A DNA stretch of 64,000 nt, from NCBI GenBank assembly GCA_964597575.1, contig CAZQXB010000001.1:274111-338110 (forward strand). The letters are read 5' to 3'. A program made the translations under genes and the position numbers. This document shows positions 1,996 through 58,248 of this stretch, one piece after another; position 1 is the stretch's first letter, and every line of letters begins with the position of its first letter. The notes under the pieces are model-generated. The model made no database searches, was not told the DNA's origin, and was given only the letters and a program-made list of their open reading frames with translations. This stretch comes from an uncultured Gammaproteobacteria bacterium. GTDB lineage: Bacteria > Patescibacteriota > Patescibacteriia > Magasanikbacterales > UBA922.

Positions 1996-2095
1996 TTTTT
2001 TTACTAAACTCCACCCACTTCTAGCAAAAGATCAAATTTGTTTCTTGGAAACGAGACGAGTATACCAAAAAAAGTACAGCTCGTCAATCGTGGCT

Positions 2096-2857
2096 CTAGC
2101 CAATGGGGTCACTGCTCGAACGAGGGAGAATTTCTACCTTTGATCGCTTCCACTTCTTAATAAGAAGTGCAGCTTCGGCTGCGGACACCTGGGCTTCCTG
2201 CTTACTCGATCCATTTCCCTCGGCCACCTTTTCCTTTTCTAAGTAGACCCCGACAATAAATTGTTTATTATGATCAGGCCCTTCCTCTTTGAGGACGCGA
2301 TACGTTGGAGTGATACCTAAAAGTTCCTGAGCCGCTTCTTGGAAGCGAGATTTTGGATCGACCCAAAGACCTTCTTCTAGTACATCGGGAAGGCGGCTAA
2401 TCACGAAGCGGGTGATAAATTGGTTTGTGATATCCCAACCTTGGTCAATGTAAATAGCCCCAATAAGCGCTTCCAGGGCATTCGCGAGAATATATTCTCG
2501 TGCTTTTGTGCCACTGTCTTTCGCTTCACCGTGGCTCAAAAATAAGTATGTTTCAAGGCCGAGTTCAGACGCAACGGCCGCACACATTTTAGCGTTTACA
2601 AGAGACGCGCGCCAGTTGGTCATGTCGCCTTCCGTATTTAAGTAGTTTTCAAATAAATACTGCGTCACCGAAAGTTCGAGAACCGCATCACCTAAAAATT
2701 CCATGCGTTCGTTATGAGCAAGAGGGAAGTCACGGTGTTCGTTTAAGTACGATCGGTGAACAACAGACTGTACTAAGTGATTCTTATTATGAAAATGAAT
2801 TCCAATGTGCTCTTCGAGCGCCGTAAATTTTTTTTCAGCGTATTCAGGAACGATCAT
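2096..2857 (-). CDS. rnc: Ribonuclease III
   Basis: RNase III signature ERMEFLGDAVLELSVTQYL; C-terminal dsRBD-like region. Confidence 0.9.
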   Translation of the reverse strand: MIVPEYAEKKFTALEEHIGIHFHNKNHLVQSVVHRSYLNEHRDFPLAHNERMEFLGDAVLELSVTQYLFENYLNTEGDMTNWRASLVNAKMCAAVASELGLETYLFLSHGEAKDSGTKAREYILANALEALIGAIYIDQGWDITNQFITRFVISRLPDVLEEGLWVDPKSRFQEAAQELLGITPTYRVLKEEGPDHNKQFIVGVYLEKEKVAEGNGSSKQEAQVSAAEAALLIKKWKRSKVEILPRSSSDPIG

Positions 2858-16826: not shown

Positions 16827-16994
16827 GAAGGTTTTCTAAAAAAGTTTGTGGGTAGCACTTAGCTGAAGAAGGGGATCATCTAAGTGCTACCGGACCTTAT
16901 GAGAGGGATACAAAGTTTGAACGGCAATGGCTGTTCAGCTCCGGTGCACAAACGGCAACGCAAACAATTCACCTCAACGACAAGGAGAAGAGTC

Positions 16995-17183
16995 ATGCGC
17001 ACCCAATTCGAGATCGATCCTGATGCGCCCAAGCCAGATCAAGATCGGGCCGCTCAGCTGCTGAGCTCTCTCGGCTCCTCCGGGATGGAGCGACGCCTCT
17101 TGGCACGGGATCTGCCGGAGGGAATCGTCGCCATCAGTGATGGGGACGAGATTCGTCGGGAGGATCTTCTTCGGGAGAAGTGA
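16995..17183 (+). CDS. Small acidic hypothetical protein (62 aa), high-GC codon usage
   Basis: RBS aaggag 8 nt upstream; GC3-rich codons unlike neighbouring genes. Confidence 0.3.
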   Translation: MRTQFEIDPDAPKPDQDRAAQLLSSLGSSGMERRLLARDLPEGIVAISDGDEIRREDLLREK

Positions 17184-17199
17184 TCAAGGAGGGCGCAGG

Positions 17200-17538
17200 G
17201 TGCTTCCTGCGGATCGGTCTCGTGCCATGCACGCGACAGGTCGGAAGAGCAATTGCGTTGCCTTCCCCAACGACATTCGGACCACGGTCCGGTTGTTGTG
17301 CGGGAAAGAAACAATTTTACCAAAGAGAGAGGGGTATCGCTTGAAAAGTGGTACTGGTAAGGTAAAGAGGGGTGATAGGCGGATGACGCCTGCTGATCAC
17401 GACGAGCTCAGCCTCATGAGAGCGGCTCGCGAGGAGGCTATGAAGCGGCCAGAGGCTTCTAGAGTAGTGCGGCATCTGGAGGATGCGATCAAGATGAAGG
17501 AGGAGTGGATCAATGGACAACGGGGAAGCAAACCCTAG
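17200..17538 (+). CDS. Small basic hypothetical protein, high-GC (GTG start after aaggaggg; alternatively a 51-aa product from ATG 17383)
   Basis: RBS followed by an ORF with GC3-rich codons. Confidence 0.25.
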   Translation: MLPADRSRAMHATGRKSNCVAFPNDIRTTVRLLCGKETILPKREGYRLKSGTGKVKRGDRRMTPADHDELSLMRAAREEAMKRPEASRVVRHLEDAIKMKEEWINGQRGSKP

Positions 17539-17659
17539 CTTCGGAGGAACCATCAGTCTTCACGAGCTCGTGAATCCGGGTCAGATCGACCAGAAGAACG
17601 AGCAGTCGGTCGATGAGGTTCCGGCACCCGCGGAAGAAGACACCGCGACGGCCACCTAG
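17513..17659 (+). CDS. Small acidic hypothetical protein (48 aa), high-GC
   Basis: RBS aggagg then ATG; ends TAG; terminator hairpin downstream. Confidence 0.25.
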   Translation: MDNGEANPSFGGTISLHELVNPGQIDQKNEQSVDEVPAPAEEDTATAT

Positions 17660-17690
17660 ATGGCCACACACCCATCACAGCTTGTCTGTG

Positions 17691-17730
17691 GGCCCCGGCT
17701 ATCGCACCTTGCGAGACGCCGGGCTTTTTC
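17691..17730 (+). terminator. Terminator after the GC-rich small-ORF cluster
   Basis: cccggc...gccggg stem followed by ctttttc. Confidence 0.45.
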
Positions 17731-18003: not shown

Positions 18004-18077
18004 CGGGCTATAGCGCAGTTGGCTAGCGCGCATGCATGGGGTGCATGAGGTCGTGGGTTCAAGTCCCGCTAGCCCGA
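18004..18077 (+). tRNA. tRNA-Pro (anticodon GGG)
   Basis: Acceptor CGGGCTA/TAGCCCG, anticodon stem CATGC/GCATG with loop ATGGGGT, T-arm GTGGG-TTCAAGT-CCCGC. Confidence 0.85.
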
Positions 18078-18096
18078 CAAAAGTAAAAAAGAAATT

Positions 18097-25971: not shown

Positions 25972-27505
<1,534 letters not shown>

Positions 27506-50695: not shown

Positions 50696-51727
50696 ATGAA
50701 TACTCCGGCCCTGGAGGGCAGAGTGCAGAAAAGAAAAAAAGGAGTTGTTGGAGCAAGCCTCCTTTTTTTGGCTATACTTGCCCTTGGTCTTGGATTCTTT
50801 TTTGGTCTTGATGTGGTAAAAGCGCCTACAAAAACAGTAAACAAAGCGCCTCAGATTGATTTTTCTTTATCTGATGTTGCATCTCTTGCTGCGGCGCTTT
50901 TTGCTGAACGCAGTACGCCGGCAGTTGTGGTTGAGCCAGCAGTTCTTCCGCCACTTCGGGTAAGTGAAGGGGACTTGCCGACAACCAGTGCTCACGCCTT
51001 TCTCGTGCGTGATGTTTCTTCGGGCGCGTTCCTTCTGAATGGTGATGCCTATACACCATTTGCGATTGCAAGCATTACAAAGCTTATGAGTGCGCTCGTC
51101 CTTCTTGATACCAAAATTGATTGGGAGGCTACAGCCATTGTACCCGCAGATGAAGTGTCAGATAGCCATGTGCTTTCGGGGGAAGTGCAAACAAAAGCAT
51201 GGCTTTGGCAGGCAGGCCTAGTTGGATCATCAAATAAAGCCATTCTTGCGCTGGTTGATAGTAGTGGTTTAACGCGCGAAGCCTTTGTGGTTCGCATGAA
51301 CGAAAAGGCCCGTGTGCTCGGAATGTCTCGTGCTGTGTTTACCGATCCAACCGGGCTTGAGGTGGGGAATCAGGCGAGTGTGGCTGATGTTTCGACGTTA
51401 CTCGATGCTGCCATGAAACAAGGAGAAATTCGCTCAGCCCTTATGACCCCGTCGTACGATATTGTTCGGGGTGGAAAAAAAGTGTCAACGGTTTGGAGTA
51501 CGAACTGGCTTATGCTTGGCTGGGTGCCGCATACATTTGCAAGTGTGATTGGTGGAAAAACAGGATACATTCCAGAATCTGGATATAACGTATCGCTTCG
51601 TATTAAAAATGAAGATGATCGTGAAATTGATGTGGTGGTGCTTGGATCAAGCTCGACCGAATCACGATTTACTGATGCGAAAAGTTTGGCCGAGTGGGTT
51701 TTTGCACATTACGAGTGGAAGGAATAG
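50696..51727 (+). CDS. D-alanyl-D-alanine carboxypeptidase (S11, PBP5-like)
   Basis: Signal/TM region; SITK (SxxK), SSN (SxN) and KTG motifs. Confidence 0.85.
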   Translation: MNTPALEGRVQKRKKGVVGASLLFLAILALGLGFFFGLDVVKAPTKTVNKAPQIDFSLSDVASLAAALFAERSTPAVVVEPAVLPPLRVSEGDLPTTSAHAFLVRDVSSGAFLLNGDAYTPFAIASITKLMSALVLLDTKIDWEATAIVPADEVSDSHVLSGEVQTKAWLWQAGLVGSSNKAILALVDSSGLTREAFVVRMNEKARVLGMSRAVFTDPTGLEVGNQASVADVSTLLDAAMKQGEIRSALMTPSYDIVRGGKKVSTVWSTNWLMLGWVPHTFASVIGGKTGYIPESGYNVSLRIKNEDDREIDVVVLGSSSTESRFTDAKSLAEWVFAHYEWKE

Positions 51728-51740
51728 GAGATATAAAACA

Positions 51741-51770
51741 AAAACAGCCAATTGATGCGGCTGTTTTTGT
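51741..51770 (+). terminator. Terminator after the carboxypeptidase gene
   Basis: aaacagcc-aattgatgc-ggctgttt then ttgt. Confidence 0.6.
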
Positions 51771-51853
51771 AAACTCTCTTTGAAAACAAACTCATGTTTA
51801 TTTTCACAGTGAAATTTTGGGCCAGAGCATTCGCGAAGGAATGTCTGGCCCGA
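51771..51853. repeat. 83-bp direct repeat copy 1 (3' of the island lipoprotein gene), containing palindrome TTTCACAGTGAAA and hairpin gggccaga/tctggccc
   Basis: Near-identical (about 96%) to 54399-54481. Confidence 0.85.
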
Positions 51854-51884
51854 TACCTACTGCAGGATTGCGAGTAGGGTGTGG

Positions 51885-53051
51885 CTACGGAGCCACGACG
51901 TTCAGGTAGCGGATGATCTGTCCCTCCATCCCGATTTCACTCGGTTGAAGCGGCTGACCGTTGCTCCAGAATCTGGTCCCTGTGAGCTGCGCAGCGTAGA
52001 TGGTGTCGGTGTGCCCTTGTCCCGGCTCGAGCCGGGCGATGTCCACCACGACGGTGAGCTGAATGGTTTCACCTCTCTCGACGGTCTGTACCTGTCCTTC
52101 TTTCGCGAGGGACATGATGCCATCCTGGTCGCTTCTCAGCATGCCGGTCCGCCGAACAAGCGGCGTCCTTTCAGACGTGAGCCCTTCGAGACCTCCGACA
52201 TGGAAACGACCATTCGTGATCACCGGATTGTCGCCCTGCCAGAGCGTCATGTTGCCGTTGCCGATCTGCCAGATGAAGTACTCGATGCCGCCGAACTGCA
52301 GCAGATCGCAGGCGGTGATGTTGAGCACCGCTACGAGCTCGTTCGTGACGCCCGTCGGTCCGAAGTAGTCGGGGAAACCCTGGTCTTGCGTGATCCAGAC
52401 TTTCCGGCCCGTCACCGAGCACGGATCGCTCGCCGGACGAACCACACGATATGTGTCGTGCGTGGCGTCGTTCCGGATGAGCCGCGCTGCCTTCCCATCC
52501 TCCGTGCGGGTTGCGCGGAGCATGTCTCTCATGAGCCGGACCGAGTAGATACCATCCTCCTCGGCCGTTATGGGAATCCGACCGTACAGGGTGAGTCGGA
52601 GCGTGCGCCTTTCGGGCACGTTCGTTACATCCTGCGCGAGAGGTACCGAGATGATCCCGCCGATCATCTCGAAGAGCTTCTCGTAGCTTCCGTCGTGCTC
52701 CACCTTGCGGAACACTTCGGTCATGTGCGGGATCTCGAGGAAGATCGGGCTGACGTCGACCGTATTGCAGGCCGTGATCTCGAGGGTGATGAGGCGGGCC
52801 TCCCACCCGCGGTTGTACGTCCGCAGATCGTCGGTGGTGACCACGTTGATGTCGTAGTCGCCGTCCGGACACTTCTGGTCGAGTCGCTCCTCGAGCGTGA
52901 GCTCGGGATCCTCCCCCGACGGCTCCCCCTGGGGGAACGTGACGTCCGGCAGATGGATGTTGACGGTCGGCGCCGGGGCCATGGGCTCCTCACCGCACGC
53001 GGCGATGATGCTGGCGAGCGCGATGCTCGCCAGCAGGTTGAACTTCTTCAT
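51885..53051 (-). CDS. Lipoprotein (388 aa), high-GC codon usage
   Basis: RBS gggaggaag. Signal peptide MKKFNLLASIALASIIAAC with lipobox. GC3-rich codons. Confidence 0.7.
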   Translation of the reverse strand: MKKFNLLASIALASIIAACGEEPMAPAPTVNIHLPDVTFPQGEPSGEDPELTLEERLDQKCPDGDYDINVVTTDDLRTYNRGWEARLITLEITACNTVDVSPIFLEIPHMTEVFRKVEHDGSYEKLFEMIGGIISVPLAQDVTNVPERRTLRLTLYGRIPITAEEDGIYSVRLMRDMLRATRTEDGKAARLIRNDATHDTYRVVRPASDPCSVTGRKVWITQDQGFPDYFGPTGVTNELVAVLNITACDLLQFGGIEYFIWQIGNGNMTLWQGDNPVITNGRFHVGGLEGLTSERTPLVRRTGMLRSDQDGIMSLAKEGQVQTVERGETIQLTVVVDIARLEPGQGHTDTIYAAQLTGTRFWSNGQPLQPSEIGMEGQIIRYLNVVAP

Positions 53052-53246
53052 GGTAACTTCCTCCCTGGAAGTATGGTGAGAATGGACGCGTGATTGCGCC
53101 AGTCTATATTTGGGTTTTTGATTCCCCTTCGAGAGAAGATACATCAGTGTCCCATATAGGGCCACGACGTACCCTCCTTCGAAGGAGAATATTGTAAAGA
53201 AATTGTTGTTCACTTGTAGAGACAGATCTCTATTTATGAACAAGAG

Positions 53247-53317
53247 AGTATATCATAAAATGGTGGTTTTGTCAAGAGGTAAAAGGTTATATTTCTCTTA
53301 TTTTAGGTAAATTATGA
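53247..53317 (-). promoter_or_regulatory. Island promoter 1 (TTGACA-17-TATACT on the minus strand) plus conserved upstream element
   Basis: -35 at 53270-53275, -10 at 53247-53252. Element tcttattttaggtaaattatga lies 21 bp beyond the -35. Confidence 0.6.
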
Positions 53318-53343
53318 CGTCTATGTTTGCCTTTAAAAAGTAA

Positions 53344-53381
53344 AACTTCCTCGTGTCGACCCGATGGGACAGGAGGAAGTA
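53344..53381 (-). terminator. Terminator for the 250-aa island gene
   Basis: cttcctc...gaggaag stem followed (minus strand) by ttttacttttt. Confidence 0.5.
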
Positions 53382-53438
53382 GGTGGGCGTAGTGCCCGGT
53401 AGGTAGGACCCCACATCACTCCGGAGAGTGGAAAGAGG

Positions 53439-54191
53439 TTATGACTTGGTTCCAGAGAGAGTATCGAAGAATTTGCCTAGGCCCAAGTAGACCCGGTACT
53501 TCTTCTTATCCGGCTCCCTCGGACCGTAGAACAGACCCTCGTCGTTGAGGTACGGCTCTCCGTACATTACTCCCATGACCGGTCTGTAGTATGGGCGCCA
53601 ACACTCGGGATCGCGCTCGCCTGCTTGTTGGGCGAAGAAGAAGATCCGGTTCGGCATCTTGCGCGTCCAATGGACTATCCCGTACGAGTCCTTCAGGTCA
53701 GGACGCTCTTGTTCCGGTCTCACTTCGAAACTCATCGAGGTGGAGGCTTCGAAGAGCTCTCGGAAGTCCGCGTGGGATGAGTTGAACGGGACATCCATTC
53801 CGGGGTTCAAAAGCCCCTCGGTGAACAGTCCTTGGTCCATTCGGAAACCGTGCATCCCACCTTCATCTTCTGGGACGTACCAGTTCCTTCTCATCGTGAG
53901 CTTAAGTTCTTTCGTGTGAAAGGCCTTTTGAGAGGCCTCGAGAAAGCTACCGCATTGAGCGCGGAACTCGTCGGGGGAGATCGGGATCGTGAACACCCCC
54001 ATCCTCTTTTTTCTTTCGAGGATGGCGAAGAAGTGGCTAGGTGAATCGCTGGTCAAATGTCCAGCATCCTCCTCGCTCTTCTCGGTCATCTCCCATCCCC
54101 AGAGCCTCTGCCTTTTCTTCGCCACCACGACCTGCGCGACCCGCTCTTCCTTAGAGAAGAAGTTCTTTGCGTCTTCATTGTTATTGGCCAT
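53439..54191 (-). CDS. Hypothetical cytoplasmic protein (250 aa), high-GC codon usage
   Basis: RBS ggagagggaag; no signal peptide; no recognisable motif. Confidence 0.55.
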   Translation of the reverse strand: MANNNEDAKNFFSKEERVAQVVVAKKRQRLWGWEMTEKSEEDAGHLTSDSPSHFFAILERKKRMGVFTIPISPDEFRAQCGSFLEASQKAFHTKELKLTMRRNWYVPEDEGGMHGFRMDQGLFTEGLLNPGMDVPFNSSHADFRELFEASTSMSFEVRPEQERPDLKDSYGIVHWTRKMPNRIFFFAQQAGERDPECWRPYYRPVMGVMYGEPYLNDEGLFYGPREPDKKKYRVYLGLGKFFDTLSGTKS

Positions 54192-54252
54192 CTGATCTTC
54201 CCTCTCCTTTTTGGGGTTGTTATGCTACCTTTGCTTTAAAAAGGTAACAAAA

Positions 54253-54326
54253 AATTATACTCCTTTTTTTTGGTTTTGTCAAGAGGTAAAAGGTTATATT
54301 TCTCTTATTTTAGATAAATTATATGA
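54253..54326 (-). promoter_or_regulatory. Island promoter 2 (TTGACA-17-TATAAT) plus conserved upstream element
   Basis: -35 at 54276-54281, -10 at 54253-54258. Element 54303-54326 lies 22 bp from the -35. 40 bp identical to promoter 1. Confidence 0.6.
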
Positions 54327-54398
54327 TTCATACGGGTCATAAAAATGAGAGCAAACAAAAACCACCAACCGGTGAAAAGGTTGGTGGTTAATATGAGC

Positions 54399-54481
54399 AA
54401 ACTCTCTTTGAAAACAAACTCATGTTTATTTTCACAGTGAAATTTGGGGCCAGAGCATTCGCGAACGAATGTCTGGCCCGA
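54399..54481. repeat. 83-bp direct repeat copy 2
   Basis: See copy 1. Confidence 0.85.
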
Positions 54482-54534
54482 ACCTGCCGGGGGAGTCTCG
54501 GTAGACTCTACCTAGGTAGGCGGGCAGGGTGCCC

Positions 54535-55128
54535 TTACTGATTCGACATGATGGTGTAGCTTCTCGTCGTGTTGCTGAACTCGACGATCGCCGGAGACCC
54601 ATCTGCGCGGAGCGCGTCGAATTCGACGAGCCTGACCTCTCGGGTAACGCCCGGTCGGATCCACGGATTGGTGTCCACGACGAACGTGAGCAGGTGGGGA
54701 CCATCTTCGACGAGAACGTCATCGTCATCTTCGTTGAGCGTCTCGCTCCACGAGATCACGAGGTTGTTCGACCCGTCATCGACGCGCTCGACGTCGCCGA
54801 GGTTCCTTCCATCGAAGGAGACCGCGACGATGTTCGAGATCGAGTCGTTGAAGAGGGTGCCGAGGAGAACCTCGGTGTACTCCACCGAAACGTCCTTGGA
54901 AGCCGGGTTCCACCGGAGCTCGAGGGTGACGGCGAAGGGTTCACCTGCCTCGACTTCGAGCCCATCGTTGATGGGGAACATGGTCACCGCCATGTCCGGG
55001 TCCGGTTGCGGTTCGCCCAGGTTCTTGATGTCGACCTCGCGGTAATCGAGGGGCGACAGATCCGTCCTCCCACATGCCGTGGAGAAGAGCGTGGGGAGCA
55101 AAGCGTAGCAGAGCAGTCGGTTGAACAT
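54535..55128 (-). CDS. Lipoprotein (197 aa), high-GC codon usage
   Basis: RBS aaggaggaag; signal peptide ending LFSTAC; acidic mature part. Confidence 0.65.
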   Translation of the reverse strand: MFNRLLCYALLPTLFSTACGRTDLSPLDYREVDIKNLGEPQPDPDMAVTMFPINDGLEVEAGEPFAVTLELRWNPASKDVSVEYTEVLLGTLFNDSISNIVAVSFDGRNLGDVERVDDGSNNLVISWSETLNEDDDDVLVEDGPHLLTFVVDTNPWIRPGVTREVRLVEFDALRADGSPAIVEFSNTTRSYTIMSNQ

Positions 55129-55334
55129 GGCAACTTCCTCCTTGGAAGTGTGTTAGAGTGGCGCTCCATGCGCCAATCTCTCTATCAAGGTTTGTATTTA
55201 TTCCCCTTCGAGTAAAGATACATCAGACGCTCCACCTGGGAACGCGACGTACCTGTATTCGAAGAGGAATGTGTCTATATAAAGAGCAAAAATGCTTCAC
55301 AGGTGGCTTTTTAGGCAAACACTGTGAACGGCAT

Positions 55335-55405
55335 AGTATAGCACAAAAACACTGTTTTGTCAATATGTGATTGGAAAAATTTGTCTTATTTTAGCTAAAT
55401 ATGAT
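55335..55405 (-). promoter_or_regulatory. Island promoter 3 (TTGACA-17-TATACT) plus conserved upstream element
   Basis: -35 at 55358-55363, -10 at 55335-55340. Element tcttattttagctaaatatga lies 22 bp from the -35. Confidence 0.6.
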
Positions 55406-55588
55406 GTGTATAAGTTTACAAAGTCTGCGTGAAAAATACCCATTGACTTTTTTCAAAGAATATGGTACAAATATATGTCGCTTTTTTGTATAAAAAATTT
55501 GAATAATGCGACATCAGTAACGTCACCAAAACTCAACTTGCATGGTGCAGGAAGAGGGATGGTGCAACAACTGAGGGAGACAAAAGAA

Positions 55589-56080
55589 ATGACGACCGAC
55601 AACTTGCTCAACAGCTTCAAGAGCGCGGGCATCGCGTTCGCGTATTCGGGATCTGCGATGTATCCGCAGATCCCCTCGGTCAAGGACGTGCTCTATGTCC
55701 TCAGGATCGAGGAGAAGCCGGACGTGTACCAGAGTGCCCTCGGGAACCACTACGACTATGTGAGCAACGTCGCTCTGGTCGTGTCCGCGGTCGCGTTCAA
55801 CGTGCTCGACGACATGCTCGATACGATGACGCGGGAGATGGTCGTGGCGCTCGCGATCATCGATCTGTGCCCGGACGAGGCCAGGTGTCTCTCCAATCCG
55901 CGGTACGCCGACGTGTTCCGGATCGTGAACCAGGATCCGTCGCTCGAGCCCGCGCTCGCGCCGGATGCGACGAGGGAGATACTCCAGGGGTTCTGCACCT
56001 GCCCCGCACACGGGAAGGCGGGTGCGGCGCAGGGCGGCGGCAGCGTCGCGGACCAGCACCGCGGCTGGAGCGCGAGCTGA
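55589..56080 (+). CDS. Hypothetical protein (about 163 aa; alternative start 55559), high-GC, divergent from lipoprotein gene 3
   Basis: RBS gagggag; GC3-rich codons; strong terminator downstream. The antisense ORF is Arg-rich junk. Confidence 0.55.
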   Translation: MTTDNLLNSFKSAGIAFAYSGSAMYPQIPSVKDVLYVLRIEEKPDVYQSALGNHYDYVSNVALVVSAVAFNVLDDMLDTMTREMVVALAIIDLCPDEARCLSNPRYADVFRIVNQDPSLEPALAPDATREILQGFCTCPAHGKAGAAQGGGSVADQHRGWSAS

Positions 56081-56106
56081 ACATGGCTCGGCGCTGAGTA
56101 TACATG

Positions 56107-56160
56107 TCCGGCAGGAAAATCGAACTTCGGTTCGACGAGTACTGCCGGGCTTTTTTAATT
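56107..56160 (+). terminator. Rho-independent terminator ending the island
   Basis: ccggcag...ctgccgg stem then gcttttttaatttgttttttt. Confidence 0.7.
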
Positions 56161-56358
56161 TGTTTTTTTGTTGGGAGGGGGATCTCACTCGTCGCTCATT
56201 TCATTCGCTCCTCTTGGGAAAGGGCTTCCGCCCCTTCCCAACCATCCCCCAGCAAAAGTGAAAACCTACCGGTTTTCAAGCTTTCCCCAGTTCGACCCAC
56301 CTCCTGCCCTGTCAAACAAATTATAAAACCAACCTGGTTAGGTCGGTTTTATTATTTG

Positions 56359-56442
56359 TGGGCGAGGAGGGGGTCGAACCCTCAAGACCTTGCGATCGCG
56401 GGATTTTGAGTCCCGTGCGTCTGCCAGTTCCGCCACTCGCCC
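56359..56442 (-). tRNA. tRNA-Leu (anticodon CAA), long variable arm
   Basis: Reverse complement GGGCGAGTGGCGGAACTGGCAGACGCACGGGACTCAAAATCCCG...GGTTCGACCCCCTCCTCGCCCA. Confidence 0.85.
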
Positions 56443-56526
56443 GTATTTGTACGAGCATAATACTCATTTTTGTCTTTTTTGTCAATTTTCGGTATACTTG
56501 TCTGAACAGTTCGGCTTCCTTGTTTT

Positions 56527-57327
56527 ATGACCAAAATTATTGCTGTCGTTAATCAAAAAGGTGGAGTGGGAAAAACCACGACCGCCATGAATTTGGCTGC
56601 GGCACTCGCTGAGGAAGGAAAGTTTGTGCTCCTTGTTGATATGGATCCCCAAGGGAATGCTTCAAGTGGGCTCGGGGTAAATAAAAGCACGACCGAACAC
56701 GGGGTATACGAGGCACTTGCAAAACAAAAGCGGCTACATGATGTCGTACAGAATACTGGCCATGAGGGTCTGCGCGTTGCCCCTGCCACGTCAAATCTCG
56801 CTGGAGCGAATGTTGAATTAATCGACGTAGAACGCCGTGAATTTCAGCTGTCAGACCTTCTCGAAGAGGTGCGTCATGCGTACGATTACATTGTTATCGA
56901 TTGCCCACCCTCGCTTGGTCTCCTTACCATTAATAGTTTGGTTGCCGCGGACGAGCTTCTTATCCCGGTTCAAGCCGAATACTATGCGCTTGAGGGGTTA
57001 GGTCAACTTTTGGAAACCATCGGGCTTATTAAAGAACATATTAAAGCTGATTTGAAGGTGCTTGGTGCGGTCATTACCATGTTTGATAAACGGAACAAGC
57101 TGTCGACCGACATCATGAATGAATTATACAAATATTTTCCCAACAATATTTTCCAAAGTGTTATTCCTCGCACGGTCCGTTTGGCCGAGGCGCCAAGCTT
57201 TGGAAAATCGATTTTTCATTACGAACCAGGAGGTAAGGGGGCGAAAGCGTACGAACGCTTAGTCAAAGAAATTCTTTTACGCCATGATGAAGAACTGGCC
57301 TTGGCCGCTTCTCAGGCACAATCATAA
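56527..57327 (+). CDS. parA: Chromosome partitioning ATPase ParA/Soj
   Basis: KGGVGKTTTA deviant Walker A. Confidence 0.9.
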   Translation: MTKIIAVVNQKGGVGKTTTAMNLAAALAEEGKFVLLVDMDPQGNASSGLGVNKSTTEHGVYEALAKQKRLHDVVQNTGHEGLRVAPATSNLAGANVELIDVERREFQLSDLLEEVRHAYDYIVIDCPPSLGLLTINSLVAADELLIPVQAEYYALEGLGQLLETIGLIKEHIKADLKVLGAVITMFDKRNKLSTDIMNELYKYFPNNIFQSVIPRTVRLAEAPSFGKSIFHYEPGGKGAKAYERLVKEILLRHDEELALAASQAQS

Positions 57328-57333
57328 TTTTCT

Positions 57334-58248
57334 ATGGCTTTGGGCAAAGGCTTACAATCACTTATTGGCGCACCAGGGAAATCTTCCACATCCACATCCA
57401 CTTCCACGATGAATCCTCTTTCTGCTTCTTCAAAAAAAACAGAATCTGGAGTATCAGAAAAGAAAGAGCATCGAGGGAATGAAGTGTGGCAAATTCCGCT
57501 TGGTGAAATCGTTCCGAATCGCGAACAACCACGCAAACACTTTGCGAGAGAAGACCTTGATAATTTAGTTGCTTCCATTAAAGAGCATGGGCTACTGCAG
57601 CCGATTACGGTTTCAGAAAAAGCCGGTGGCGGGTATGAGCTTATTGCAGGTGAACGCCGGTTTCGCGCTTCGCAAATTGTTGGTCTTCCTACCATTCCAG
57701 CACTCGTTCGAAAAACAAAAGATGATGCTGAGCGACTAGAGTTAGCACTTATTGAAAATATTCAACGACAGGATTTAAACCCAGTTGAAGAAGCGTTTGC
57801 ATACGACCGGTTGATTCATGAATTTGGTTTGACGCAAGAGGAAGTGTCTAAAAAGGTGGGCAAGAGCCGCTCTGCTGTTGCAAACGCAGTGCGCTTACTT
57901 GATTTACCAGAAGACATGCAAAAGGCGCTCATGGAGGGAACACTTTCAGCCGGAAAGGCGCGCGCGATTTTGAGTTTAAGTAGCGCCGAAGCCCAGCGAG
58001 AAATGTTTCAGAGTATGATGGGGGAAAGCATGACCGTGCGTGAAGCTGAGGCGCGTGTGGCAGCAAAAGGGAGTGAATCGCGCAAAGGATCGGTCCGACG
58101 TGATCCGAATGTCGTCGCTCAGGAAAAACTGATTGAAGAGCGATTAGGAACAAAGGTGCACATTACCAAAAAAGGGGAGAAGGGAACGATTGTGATTGAC
58201 TACTACTCTTTGGAGGAATTGAATCGGCTTCTAAGTGAATTAACCTAA
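57334..58248 (+). CDS. parB: Chromosome partitioning protein ParB/Spo0J (S/T-rich N-terminal extension)
   Basis: GERRFRAS ParB box and HTH region. Confidence 0.9.
   Translation: MALGKGLQSLIGAPGKSSTSTSTSTMNPLSASSKKTESGVSEKKEHRGNEVWQIPLGEIVPNREQPRKHFAREDLDNLVASIKEHGLLQPITVSEKAGGGYELIAGERRFRASQIVGLPTIPALVRKTKDDAERLELALIENIQRQDLNPVEEAFAYDRLIHEFGLTQEEVSKKVGKSRSAVANAVRLLDLPEDMQKALMEGTLSAGKARAILSLSSAEAQREMFQSMMGESMTVREAEARVAAKGSESRKGSVRRDPNVVAQEKLIEERLGTKVHITKKGEKGTIVIDYYSLEELNRLLSELT

What the first reader, a model, noticed from the sequence alone, without database searches (positions are those of the whole stretch)
51771..51853. 83-bp direct repeat pair (second copy 54399-54481) with a parS-like 13-bp palindrome
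Two copies, about 96% identical, each lie directly 3' of an island lipoprotein gene. Each contains TTTCACAGTGAAA, which is the ParB-binding parS core TTTCAC-GTGAAA with one extra central base. Each also has an AAACA-N6-TGTTT inverted repeat and an 8-bp stem gggccaga/tctggccc. The repeat is not a simple intrinsic terminator because no U-run follows the stem on the gene strand. It could be a recombination site (attC-like or cassette boundary), a protein-binding site, or a 3' UTR element.
Basis: seen in the sequence. Interest (0 to 1): 0.6.

Follow-up and report, generated by a model that had tools for sequence, protein, structure and literature searches.

The report
Duplicated lipoprotein mRNA-tail hairpin module
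The two 83-base repeats are copies of a folded RNA tail that follows fast-changing surface-lipoprotein genes in a small clade of ultra-small (CPR/Patescibacteria) bacteria; it is not a chromosome-partition (parS) or integron site, and the duplication marks where an extra two-gene unit joined the locus.

Summary
The repeat is real: 51771-51853 and 54399-54481 match at 81 of 83 bases and form the longest repeat in the window. Each copy lies on the gene strand between the stop codon of a GC-rich ORFan lipoprotein gene and a canonical intrinsic terminator. Diverged homologues sit in the same position and orientation in two other organisms (L015, L010). Across the four copies a hairpin series (HP0, HP1, HP2) is preserved: 91% of cells are paired against 27-50% in slid controls, and seven pairs change on both sides. 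G·U pairs and covariance-model scores (104-124 bits sense, at most 32 antisense) favour the mRNA strand. The parS-like palindrome exists only in the two window copies. It has the wrong central spacing, lacks the half-site G, and is broken in the relatives. No recombinase gene lies in the 64 kb, and the element does not have attC architecture. Best reading: a lineage-specific structured 3'-UTR or intercistronic RNA module, probably a 3'-end barrier or processing element. The 5' leaders of the two cassettes are only 58% identical, so the 98% identity of the 3' elements points to a recent recombination or gene-conversion event at the element. The two copies bracket a 2,628-bp unit (genes A and B) that the relatives lack. 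Function is inferred, not shown.

The parts
51771..51853 (-). Copy 1 of the 83-nt element (3' UTR of lipoprotein gene A), made of HP1 plus HP2
   Evidence: The covariance model R1 scores 123.8 bits on the minus strand.
54399..54481 (-). Copy 2 of the 83-nt element (3' UTR of lipoprotein gene C)
   Evidence: R1 scores 104.5 bits on the minus strand.
51819..51851 (-). HP1 of copy 1: GGGCCAGACAUUC-loop-GAAUG(C)UCUGGCCC, 13 bp with a 1-nt bulge
   Evidence: All 12 modelled pairs are kept in all 4 homologues, and one pair switches G-C to A-U.
54447..54479 (-). HP1 of copy 2. The single loop substitution lengthens the stem by one pair.
51771..51818 (-). HP2 of copy 1: a long AU-rich hairpin. The inner stem is UGAAAAUAAAC/GUUUGUUUUCA (51781-51806), and the outer stem is AAAUUU/GAGUUU.
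   Evidence: L015 keeps it, with A-U to C-G, A-U to G-C and A-U to U-A switches.
54399..54446 (-). HP2 of copy 2
51802..51814 (.). The 13-nt palindrome TTTCACAGTGAAA called 'parS-like' (second copy at 54430-54442). It is part of the 5' arm of HP2 and is not conserved outside this genome.
51856..51878 (-). HP0: a small hairpin CCUACU...AGUAGG between the stop codon of gene A and the element. It is conserved with covariation in L010 and L015 and is weaker in copy 2.
51738..51770 (-). Intrinsic terminator directly after copy 1. It is bidirectional and shared with the convergent DacB-like gene.
54360..54389 (-). Intrinsic terminator 9 nt after copy 2
51885..53051 (-). Lipoprotein gene A: 388 aa, signal peptide plus lipobox, GC3 0.82. 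It has only one distant homologue (31% identity) in public data.
54535..55128 (-). Lipoprotein gene C: 197 aa, GC3 0.81, not homologous to A beyond the signal peptide
53052..53275 (-). 5' leader of cassette A (about 190 nt, structured) and its sigma-70 promoter TTGACA-17-TATACT (53275-47)
55129..55363 (-). 5' leader and promoter of cassette C. The leader is 88% identical to that of relative L005.
53439..54282 (-). Gene B (250 aa, ORFan, GC3 0.71) with its own consensus promoter (54282-54254). Together with A it forms the 2,628-bp unit bracketed by the two copies.
55589..56080 (+). Gene D (GC3 0.89), the conserved divergent partner of the lipoprotein slot in all four organisms
56358..56442 (-). 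tRNA-Leu(caa), which bounds the island. ParA (56527-57327) and ParB (57334-58248) follow.

Best explanation
The 83-mer is a structured RNA module that is transcribed as the tail of the lipoprotein mRNA, on the window's minus strand. It consists of a GC-rich hairpin (HP1) directly followed by a long AU-rich hairpin (HP2). A small hairpin (HP0) precedes it, and in this genome a canonical intrinsic terminator follows it.

It belongs to a lineage-specific expression chassis: a strong sigma-70 promoter, a structured leader of about 190 nt, a GC-rich lipoprotein ORF, and this hairpin trailer. The chassis occupies one slot between dacB and gene D/tRNA-Leu/parAB in a narrow clade of Patescibacteria.

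The most likely job of the trailer is to define and protect the 3' end of the upstream message. It would act as a barrier to 3'-to-5' exonucleases, or as a processing or stabilisation site, and it would insulate the next gene. This is how 3' and intercistronic stem-loops work in other bacteria.

The two copies are 98% identical because of a recent event at the element itself, not because the whole cassette was recently duplicated. Either the A+B unit (2,628 bp) entered by recombination within the element, which duplicated it, or the two copies were homogenised by gene conversion.

Shown: position, orientation, conservation, structure with covariation, strand bias, the adjacent terminators, and the mosaic pattern of identities. 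Inferred: that the element is transcribed, its stabiliser or processing role, and the recombination history.
For: (1) Anatomy. Each copy lies 31 or 53 nt after a lipoprotein stop codon and 0 or 9 nt before an intrinsic terminator on the same strand.

(2) Folding. The 83-mers fold at z = -6.7 and -7.4, and the full 3' UTRs at z = -8.8 and -7.6.

(3) Homologues. Diverged copies lie in the same place and orientation in other organisms: L015:2342-2419, after the only homologue of lipoprotein A, and L010:123-202.

(4) Structure. 91.4% of cells are paired, against 27-50% when partners are slid. Seven pairs change on both sides, against 0-3 in slid controls, and only 5 of 500 shuffles reach that number. 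HP1 is paired in 100% of cells and includes a G-C to A-U switch.

(5) Strand. The G·U pairs are valid only on the gene-sense strand. The covariance model scores 104-124 bits sense and at most 32 bits antisense.

(6) Loop lengths (4-6 nt) and a bulge vary while the stems persist. This is typical of RNA hairpins and not of operators with fixed spacing.

(7) The same layout, a GC-rich hairpin abutting an AU-rich hairpin, follows GC-rich ORFs behind the same promoter type in unrelated CPR contigs L011 and L014, with different sequences.

(8) In L015 and L014 the module is intercistronic. That fits selective processing and stabilisation as described for the cip-cel operon (PMC10311766) and terminator or stem-loop enhancement of upstream mRNA stability (PMC11696848, PMC7509114).

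(9) Mosaic identities. The A and C leaders are 58% identical, while the C leader is 88% identical to L005's. The 3' elements are 98% identical with flanks at about 60%. Relatives have one lipoprotein gene in the slot.
Against: No transcript data exist, so transcription through the element and any effect on mRNA half-life are untested.

Only three independent lineages contribute covariation, so the statistics are modest. HP2 is degraded in L010, and relative L005 has different hairpins at this position.

Selection on structure alone does not explain why unpaired bases are also identical between the two window copies. That needs the recombination or conversion step, which is inferred.

Canonical terminators already follow the element in this genome, so a pure terminator role would be redundant.

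The whole 913,817-bp source genome could not be searched, so the copy number outside the window is unknown.
Confidence: 0.6

Rival explanations
1. The element acts mainly at the DNA level, as a recombination arm. Being the conserved 3' edge of the slot, it would serve together with the conserved 5' leader as the homology that lets unrelated lipoprotein ORFs be swapped in, added or deleted by RecA-type recombination. This is replacement-island behaviour. On this view the direct repeat is the duplicated crossover site of the A+B insertion.
For: At least four lipoprotein types with no detectable homology lie between the same kinds of flanks in four organisms. The two copies bracket exactly one extra 2,628-bp unit that is absent from relatives. 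The 98% identity has sharp edges, with flanks at about 60% and leaders at only 58%. RecO, RuvX and DprA are encoded nearby or in relatives. The concept of replacement flexible genomic islands exchanged by homologous recombination is established (PMC4033161).
Against: Across species it is the pairing, not the sequence, that is conserved (64-72% identity with compensatory changes). This points to selection on RNA structure. A pure homology arm needs no hairpins and no strand bias. No population variants, such as a genome lacking A+B, were observed. An arm of 83 bp is short. This explanation is compatible with the best explanation as a by-product rather than as the selected function.
Confidence: 0.2
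2. The element is a ParB-binding site, a variant parS with one extra central base. It would contribute to chromosome partitioning or ParB loading next to parAB.
For: The palindrome TTTCAC-A-GTGAAA resembles the parS core and lies 2-5 kb from parA and parB. No canonical parS is present in the 64 kb. Some ParB proteins bind half-parS heptamers weakly (PMC5961200).
Against: The odd centre changes the half-site spacing. Both half-sites (tTTTCAC and aTTTCAC) lack the G at position 1, which is strictly conserved in the ParB-bound heptamer (PMC5961200; sequence). The palindrome is absent from the homologous elements of L015 (TTCAATCTTGAA) and L010, and from L005, whose ParB is 75% identical. Scored as an inverted repeat, it has no covariation and all departures break it. 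Palindromes of 12-13 nt are common here, 47 in 64 kb. The left arm pairs elsewhere within HP2.
Confidence: 0.02
3. The element is an integron-type attC site or another site-specific recombinase target that marks mobile gene cassettes.
For: It lies at the 3' end of cassette-like ORFan genes, its size (83 nt) is within the attC range, and it contains inverted repeats.
Against: The ends of the element do not pair with each other. It forms two separate local hairpins rather than a single bulged R''-L''/L'-R' hairpin. Neither strand has a GTTRRRY core (sequence). Every cassette has its own consensus promoter and leader. Gene B lacks the element. No tyrosine or serine recombinase or transposase is found in the 64 kb or in the relatives' loci.
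Confidence: 0.02
4. The element is a small mobile or dispersed repeat (REP-, MITE- or BIME-like) that happened to land twice.
For: The 83-nt unit has sharp edges and near-identical copies, and it is rich in hairpins like REP elements.
Against: The window holds only two copies, and the covariance model finds no others. There are no terminal inverted repeats or target-site duplications. Pattern scans found it absent from 185,579 species-representative genomes, the JGI metagenomes and IMG/VR. Its homologues in other organisms sit at the orthologous position, not at scattered sites.
Confidence: 0.04
5. The element is a regulatory RNA target rather than a passive barrier. It could be an RNase III or other nuclease site giving negative retroregulation, a binding site for an RNA-binding protein, or the source of a 3'-UTR-derived small RNA.
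For: HP2 is a long near-perfect duplex of about 20 bp, and the genome encodes RNase III (window 2099-2857). The primary sequence of HP1's inner stem CAUUC/GAAUG is invariant in all four copies. The TTTCAC/GTGAAA pairing and the HP2 stem are mutually exclusive, which could make a switch.
Against: No data distinguish this from simple stabilisation. The HP1 loops vary in sequence and length. No promoter is predicted for an independent small RNA. There is no Rfam match.
Confidence: 0.1

Closest known systems
3' and intercistronic stem-loops that set mRNA 3' ends and stability. Examples: selective RNA processing and stabilisation in the cip-cel operon (PMC10311766), terminator-mediated stabilisation (PMC11696848), and, from my own knowledge, the REP stem-loops of malE-malF and the Bacillus thuringiensis cry 'positive retroregulator'.
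   Same: These are stable hairpins on the sense strand, just downstream of an ORF and upstream of, or instead of, a terminator. They are sometimes intercistronic, as here in L015 and L014. Structure is conserved more than sequence.
   Different: There is no sequence relationship and no Rfam family. The specific two-hairpin layout (a GC-rich hairpin abutting an AU-rich hairpin that ends in AAAGAGAG) is tied to GC-rich ORFan genes in Patescibacteria. Function here is untested.
Replacement flexible genomic islands (Lopez-Perez et al. 2014, PMC4033161)
   Same: The chromosomal slot is the same in related genomes, the flanks are conserved, the genes inside are unrelated and encode exposed surface components, and exchange is attributed to homologous recombination.
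   Different: This island is tiny, holding 1-3 genes. The conserved 'flanks' are the non-coding leader and trailer of the gene itself. The ORFs have a strongly deviant GC3. No population data are available.
Chromosomal parS (tGTTNCACGTGAAACa), bound by ParB
   Same: It shares the hexamers TTTCAC/GTGAAA in inverted orientation and lies near parAB.
   Different: It has an extra central base, lacks the outer G/C of each half-site, is not conserved in relatives with 75%-identical ParB, and is embedded in a conserved RNA hairpin arm.
Integron attC sites
   Same: Both are short structured repeats at the 3' end of ORFan gene cassettes.
   Different: The element shows no end-to-end bulged hairpin, no R'/R'' cores and no integrase. 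The cassettes carry their own promoters, and not every cassette has the element.

Membership tests
parS (ParB-binding centromere site) | 16-bp palindrome tGTTNCACGTGAAACa with even symmetry (central CG) | tested here: not met
   The site is a 13-nt palindrome with an odd centre. No match to the 16-mer within 3 mismatches overlaps the element.
parS (ParB-binding centromere site) | Half-site heptamer GTTTCAC or GTTCCAC with conserved G1, T3 and A6 (PMC5961200) | tested here: not met
   The half-sites read tTTTCAC and aTTTCAC. Position 1 is T or A (sequence).
parS (ParB-binding centromere site) | Site conserved in relatives that share the ParB | tested here: not met
   ParB is 75% identical in L005. 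The palindrome is absent from L005, L010, L015 and L016 and broken in the homologous elements.
parS (ParB-binding centromere site) | Specific ParB binding or CTP-dependent loading | not testable with these tools
   This needs EMSA or ChIP-seq.
Integron attC | A single imperfect hairpin formed by the two ends (R''-L'' with L'-R'), with extrahelical bases and a GTTRRRY core | tested here: not met
   The folds give two independent local hairpins. Neither strand of the 83-mer has GTTRRRY (sequence).
Integron attC | Adjacent integron integrase and promoterless cassettes | tested here: not met
   No recombinase in the 64 kb. Each cassette has a consensus promoter.
REP/MITE-like dispersed repeat | Many copies at unrelated loci, with terminal inverted repeats or target duplications | tested here: not met
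   Two copies in the window, both at gene 3' ends, and no TIR or TSD. The whole genome is not available.
Intrinsic (Rho-independent) terminator | GC-rich hairpin immediately followed by a U-tract on the transcribed strand | tested here: not met
   HP1 is followed by AAAAUUU or CAAAUUU, and HP2 by an A-rich sequence. Separate canonical terminators lie at 51770-51738 and 54389-54360.
3'-UTR or intercistronic stabilising/processing stem-loop | Sense-strand hairpins just downstream of an ORF, conserved in position | tested here: met
   The position and orientation are the same in the window (twice), L015 and L010.
3'-UTR or intercistronic stabilising/processing stem-loop | Structure maintained by compensatory change | tested here: met
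   91.4% paired against 27-50% slid. Seven pairs change on both sides, and 5 of 500 shuffles reach that number. Only three independent lineages contribute.
3'-UTR or intercistronic stabilising/processing stem-loop | Measurable effect on the 3' end or half-life of the upstream mRNA | not testable with these tools
   This needs Term-seq, 3'-RACE or rifampicin chase, or reporter assays.
Replacement flexible genomic island | Same slot between conserved genes in related genomes, holding non-homologous genes of similar role | tested here: met
   dacB-[lipoprotein]-D-tRNA-Leu-parAB synteny in the window and L005, with the D-lipoprotein pair also present in L010 and L015. The lipoproteins are not homologous.
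Replacement flexible genomic island | Recombination signatures at the boundaries | tested here: inconclusive
   A sharp 83-nt block of 98% identity against 58-62% around it is suggestive. No population sample was available.
Any Rfam family | Covariance-model match | tested here: not met
   No hit at gathering scores, or at E up to 5, over 51600-56600. None in the relatives.

The most novel reading that the evidence does not exclude
The structured leader and the two-hairpin trailer together define an integrase-free, swap-in expression cassette in Patescibacteria. Unrelated GC3-rich ORFs, mostly surface lipoproteins, are exchanged, added or lost by recombination within these conserved non-coding RNA modules. 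In that case the 83-mer is both the mRNA tail and the 3' recombination arm. The persistently high GC3 of the cargo would then be a footprint of that recombination, for example through GC-biased gene conversion.
Probability: 0.15. Interest if true: 0.75.

Novelty: new member of a known kind. Interest (0 to 1): 0.4.

Why it matters
Almost nothing is known about post-transcriptional signals in CPR/Patescibacteria, which are mostly uncultured episymbionts. This work defines an undescribed RNA motif that has comparative support. The motif is tied to a hypervariable surface-lipoprotein slot next to parAB, and such proteins are likely to mediate contact with hosts or phages. The work also removes a false lead (a variant parS) and gives a concrete, testable model for how the locus gains genes. 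The surrounding features may prove more important than the repeat itself. These are the conserved structured leader, the shared promoter type, and ORFs whose GC3 is 0.8-0.9 in a genome where it is otherwise about 0.4.

Tried and rejected
1. Exact-pattern scans for the element. TTTCACAGTGAAANNNNGGGCCAGA in the species-representative genomes gave one hit (L002), which inspection showed to be chance. The same pattern with N at the palindrome centre (TTTCACNGTGAAANNNNGGGCCAGA) gave no hits in the JGI metagenomes. Three different patterns gave no hits in IMG/VR.

2. Rfam at gathering and at permissive thresholds gave nothing but tRNAs and 16S rRNA.

3. Homology searches for the cargo proteins. Lipoprotein A matches only itself by word index and has one 31% homologue by full HMMER. 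Gene D has two hits. Pfam gives nothing for A, B, C or D.

4. Exact look-ups of the window's proteins returned only short Logan unitigs of the same organism. These break inside the repeats, at window positions 51800 and 51788. That is what a k=31 assembly graph gives for a repeat of at least two copies, so it adds no information on copy number.

5. Canonical parS searches in the window and in all loci found no credible site.

6. A trimmed MAFFT alignment (A7) misaligned the 3' arm of HP1 and was discarded in favour of A6.

7. Profile comparisons meant to link the lipoprotein types as hyper-diverged homologues gave probabilities of 35%, 2% and 2.5%. Given the two-sequence profile this is inconclusive, with no detectable homology.

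8. A recent duplication of the whole cassette, as the cause of the 98% identity, was rejected because the leaders of A and C are only 58% identical.

9. The idea that the GC-rich ORFs are a recent import from a GC-rich donor was rejected. The high GC3 persists in four organisms even where orthologous lipoproteins share only 30% identity.

Full report
OBSERVATION

Positions 51771-51853 and 54399-54481 match at 81 of 83 bases (98%). It is the longest direct repeat in the 64-kb window. A 33-nt sub-pattern has no matches in shuffled sequence. The palindrome TTTCACAGTGAAA occurs only at these two sites.

SETTING

The window is a chromosome of about 45% GC with a 16S rRNA gene and housekeeping operons. 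Homologues of its DacB-like protein are mostly named Candidatus Magasanikbacteria or Patescibacteria. The exact protein also lies on a 913,817-bp NCBI contig, which is probably the source genome.

A GC-rich island lies between the DacB-like gene (50696-51727) and tRNA-Leu(caa) (56358-56442). ParA and ParB follow the tRNA. The island carries four ORFan genes:
- lipoprotein A, 51885-53051, minus strand
- gene B, 53439-54191, minus strand
- lipoprotein C, 54535-55128, minus strand
- gene D, 55589-56080, plus strand

Their GC3 is 0.71-0.89, against 0.32-0.45 in the neighbouring genes. The control regions are AT-rich.

A, B and C each have a near-consensus sigma-70 promoter. A and C share blocks of a leader about 190 nt long and the region around the start codon. 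A and C are not homologous beyond the signal peptide.

On the gene strand, each 83-mer lies 31 or 53 nt after the lipoprotein stop codon. A good intrinsic terminator follows 0 or 9 nt later (51770-51738 and 54389-54360). The element is therefore inside the predicted 3' UTR. Transcription itself is inferred, not observed.

STRUCTURE

The sense-strand 83-mers fold into two hairpins. HP1 is GGGCCAGACAUUC-loop-GAAUG(C)UCUGGCCC. HP2 is a long AU-rich hairpin. The z-scores are -6.7 and -7.4. With the upstream HP0 and the terminator, the whole 3' UTRs fold at z = -8.8 and -7.6.

Neither of the two differences between the copies disrupts a stem. One lies in the HP1 loop and lengthens the stem by one pair. 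The other lies at the HP1-HP2 junction.

RELATIVES

Pattern scans of the species-representative genomes, the JGI metagenomes and IMG/VR found no true copy. Exact protein look-ups recovered only short unitigs of the same organism, and these break inside the repeats.

Comparative data came from anchoring on neighbouring genes.

- L005 (DacB 61% identical, ParB 75%) has the same synteny. It carries a single GC-rich lipoprotein gene in the slot, a gene D homologue, tRNA-Leu and parAB. Its leader and divergent-promoter region is 86.5-88% identical to that of cassette C. Its lipoprotein is unrelated. Its 3' UTR carries different strong hairpins.
- L010 carries gene D and another unrelated lipoprotein. 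Its 3' UTR has HP0 and an HP1 homologue, GGACCAGACAUUC-GUGA-GAAUGC-CUGGUCC.
- L015 carries the only detectable homologue of lipoprotein A (31% identity) and a gene D homologue. Immediately 3' of that gene lies a homologue of the whole element, with both hairpins.

A more distant genome (L016, DacB 52%) has unrelated genes in the slot, so the island is confined to a narrow clade.

TESTS OF THE STRUCTURE

On the four-sequence alignment A6, the HP0-HP1-HP2 structure is paired in 91.4% of cells, against 27-50% when the partners are slid. Seven pairs change on both sides, against 0-3 in the slid controls, and 5 of 500 shuffles reach that number. HP1 is paired in every cell and includes a G-C to A-U switch.

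Several pairs are G·U, which is valid only on the gene-sense strand. A covariance model built from A6 scores the four copies at 104-124 bits on the sense strand and at most 32 bits on the antisense strand. It finds no further copy in the window or in the loci. Only three independent lineages contribute, so the support is real but modest.

Its one weak hit, in the distant contig L011, lies exactly at the 3' end of a GC-rich gene behind the same promoter type. It is again a GC-rich hairpin abutting an AU-rich hairpin that ends in AAAGAGAGUU. L014 shows the same layout between two genes. The two-hairpin trailer therefore recurs with different sequences, which argues for a role at the level of RNA structure.

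parS

The palindrome has an odd centre. Its half-sites read tTTTCAC and aTTTCAC, without the G that is strictly conserved in ParB-bound heptamers (PMC5961200).

Scored as an inverted repeat on A6, it is intact only in the two window copies. All departures break it and there is no covariation. L015 has TTCAATCTTGAA at that place. L010 and L005 have nothing comparable, although ParB is 75% identical in L005.

Perfect palindromes of at least 12-13 nt are common in the window, 47 in all. The left arm of the palindrome pairs with the distal arm of HP2 in the conserved structure.

No canonical parS occurs in the 64 kb. That is worth noting, but it does not rescue this site.

attC AND OTHER RECOMBINASE SITES

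The two ends of the element do not pair with each other, and there is no GTTRRRY core. The cassettes carry their own promoters, and gene B lacks the element. No integrase or transposase is found in the window or in the relatives' loci.

There are no terminal inverted repeats or target-site duplications either.

WHY TWO NEAR-IDENTICAL COPIES

The leaders of A and C are only 58% identical, while C's leader is 88% identical to L005's. A and C are therefore old, distinct cassettes. Yet their trailers are 98% identical over exactly 83 nt, and the 60 nt on either side are about 60% identical.

Between organisms the trailers are 64-72% identical. The trailers thus group by genome, whereas the leaders group by cassette type.

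This calls for a recent event at the element itself. All three relatives carry one lipoprotein gene in the slot, and the window's two copies bracket one extra 2,628-bp unit (A+B). The simplest history is that this unit entered by recombination within the element, which duplicated it. Gene conversion between the copies is the alternative. This step is inferred.

It matches the behaviour of replacement flexible genomic islands (PMC4033161).

MECHANISM PROPOSED

The element is the structured tail of the lipoprotein mRNA. Known 3' and intercistronic stem-loops block 3' exonucleases, define processed ends and raise the stability of the upstream message (PMC10311766, PMC11696848, PMC7509114). By analogy, I propose that HP1 and HP2 do the same here, and that with the terminator they insulate the next promoter.

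In L015 and L014 the module is intercistronic, which fits selective stabilisation of the upstream cistron.

A regulatory variant is not excluded. It could be an RNase III target, a protein-binding site or the source of a 3'-UTR small RNA. RNase III is encoded in the window.

VERDICT

The parS and attC readings are not supported. The 3'-UTR reading is supported, and the cassette-boundary reading is partly supported.

The element is an undescribed, lineage-specific member of a known kind of RNA signal. The more unusual features lie around it: a conserved structured leader, a shared promoter type, and a persistent GC3 of 0.8-0.9 in ORFs that turn over between unrelated sequences.

Noticed in passing
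window 53052-53240 (-) and 55129-55328 (-); L005:2384-2578 (-), L010:1336-1535 (-), L015:970-1158 (+): The 5' leader of the lipoprotein genes, about 190 nt long, is a conserved structured RNA. RNAalifold predicts 54 pairs, 14 of them with compensatory changes. There is a long central hairpin, and a U-rich strand pairs with the Shine-Dalgarno region, which looks like translational control. It has no Rfam match. The C-type leader is 88% identical between organisms whose DacB proteins are 61% identical.
   Followed up: partly
window 51885-56080; L005, L010, L015 island genes: GC3 of the island ORFs is 0.71-0.90 (0.60 for L015's gene D homologue), against 0.32-0.50 in the host genes. The switch falls at the start and stop codons. 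The bias persists in four organisms even where orthologous lipoproteins are only 30% identical, so it is not a recent import from a GC-rich donor. The cause is unknown.
   Followed up: partly
window 53237-53315, 54244-54322, 55325-55403; L011:861-901, L012:714-754, L014:1587-1627: A shared promoter architecture (GCTAAAATAAGCYAAAT, 15 nt, TTGACAAAAC, then an extended -10) drives GC-rich ORFs here and in unrelated AT-rich CPR contigs. In L012 and L014 a tRNA gene lies nearby. The upstream halves of the A and B promoters are 98% identical over 52 nt.
   Followed up: partly
L011:1935-2000 (+); L014: about 2090-2160 (+): A GC-rich hairpin directly abutting a long AU-rich hairpin follows the GC-rich ORFs in these distant contigs too. 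It is intercistronic in L014. L011 shares the ...AAAGAGAGUU motif followed by an A-rich tail.
   Followed up: partly
L015:2420-2878 and L008:4850-5171: In the organism of JGI sample 3300045502, the element is followed not by a terminator but by two small same-strand GC-rich ORFs. A terminator and the convergent dacB come after them. The element is intercistronic in that genome.
   Followed up: partly
window 16880-17700, next to tRNA-Pro at 18004-18078: This is a second small patch of GC-rich ORFs (GC3 about 0.6) with no Pfam match, beside a tRNA gene. It does not carry the island's promoter block or the 83-mer.
   Followed up: no
window 56290-56309 versus 56360-56379; window 56170-56260: An inverted partial copy of the 3' end of tRNA-Leu lies 50 nt from the tRNA. 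A hairpin-containing motif between gene D and the tRNA is conserved in L005, with apparent compensatory changes, and is duplicated there.
   Followed up: no
window 25972-27504: The 16S rRNA gene has no 23S rRNA gene anywhere in the 64-kb window, so the rRNA genes are unlinked.
   Followed up: no
whole window; parAB at 56527-58248: There is no canonical parS within 64 kb of parAB. The two matches at 3 mismatches are at chance level. There is none in the 11-kb parAB locus of relative L005 either.
   Followed up: partly
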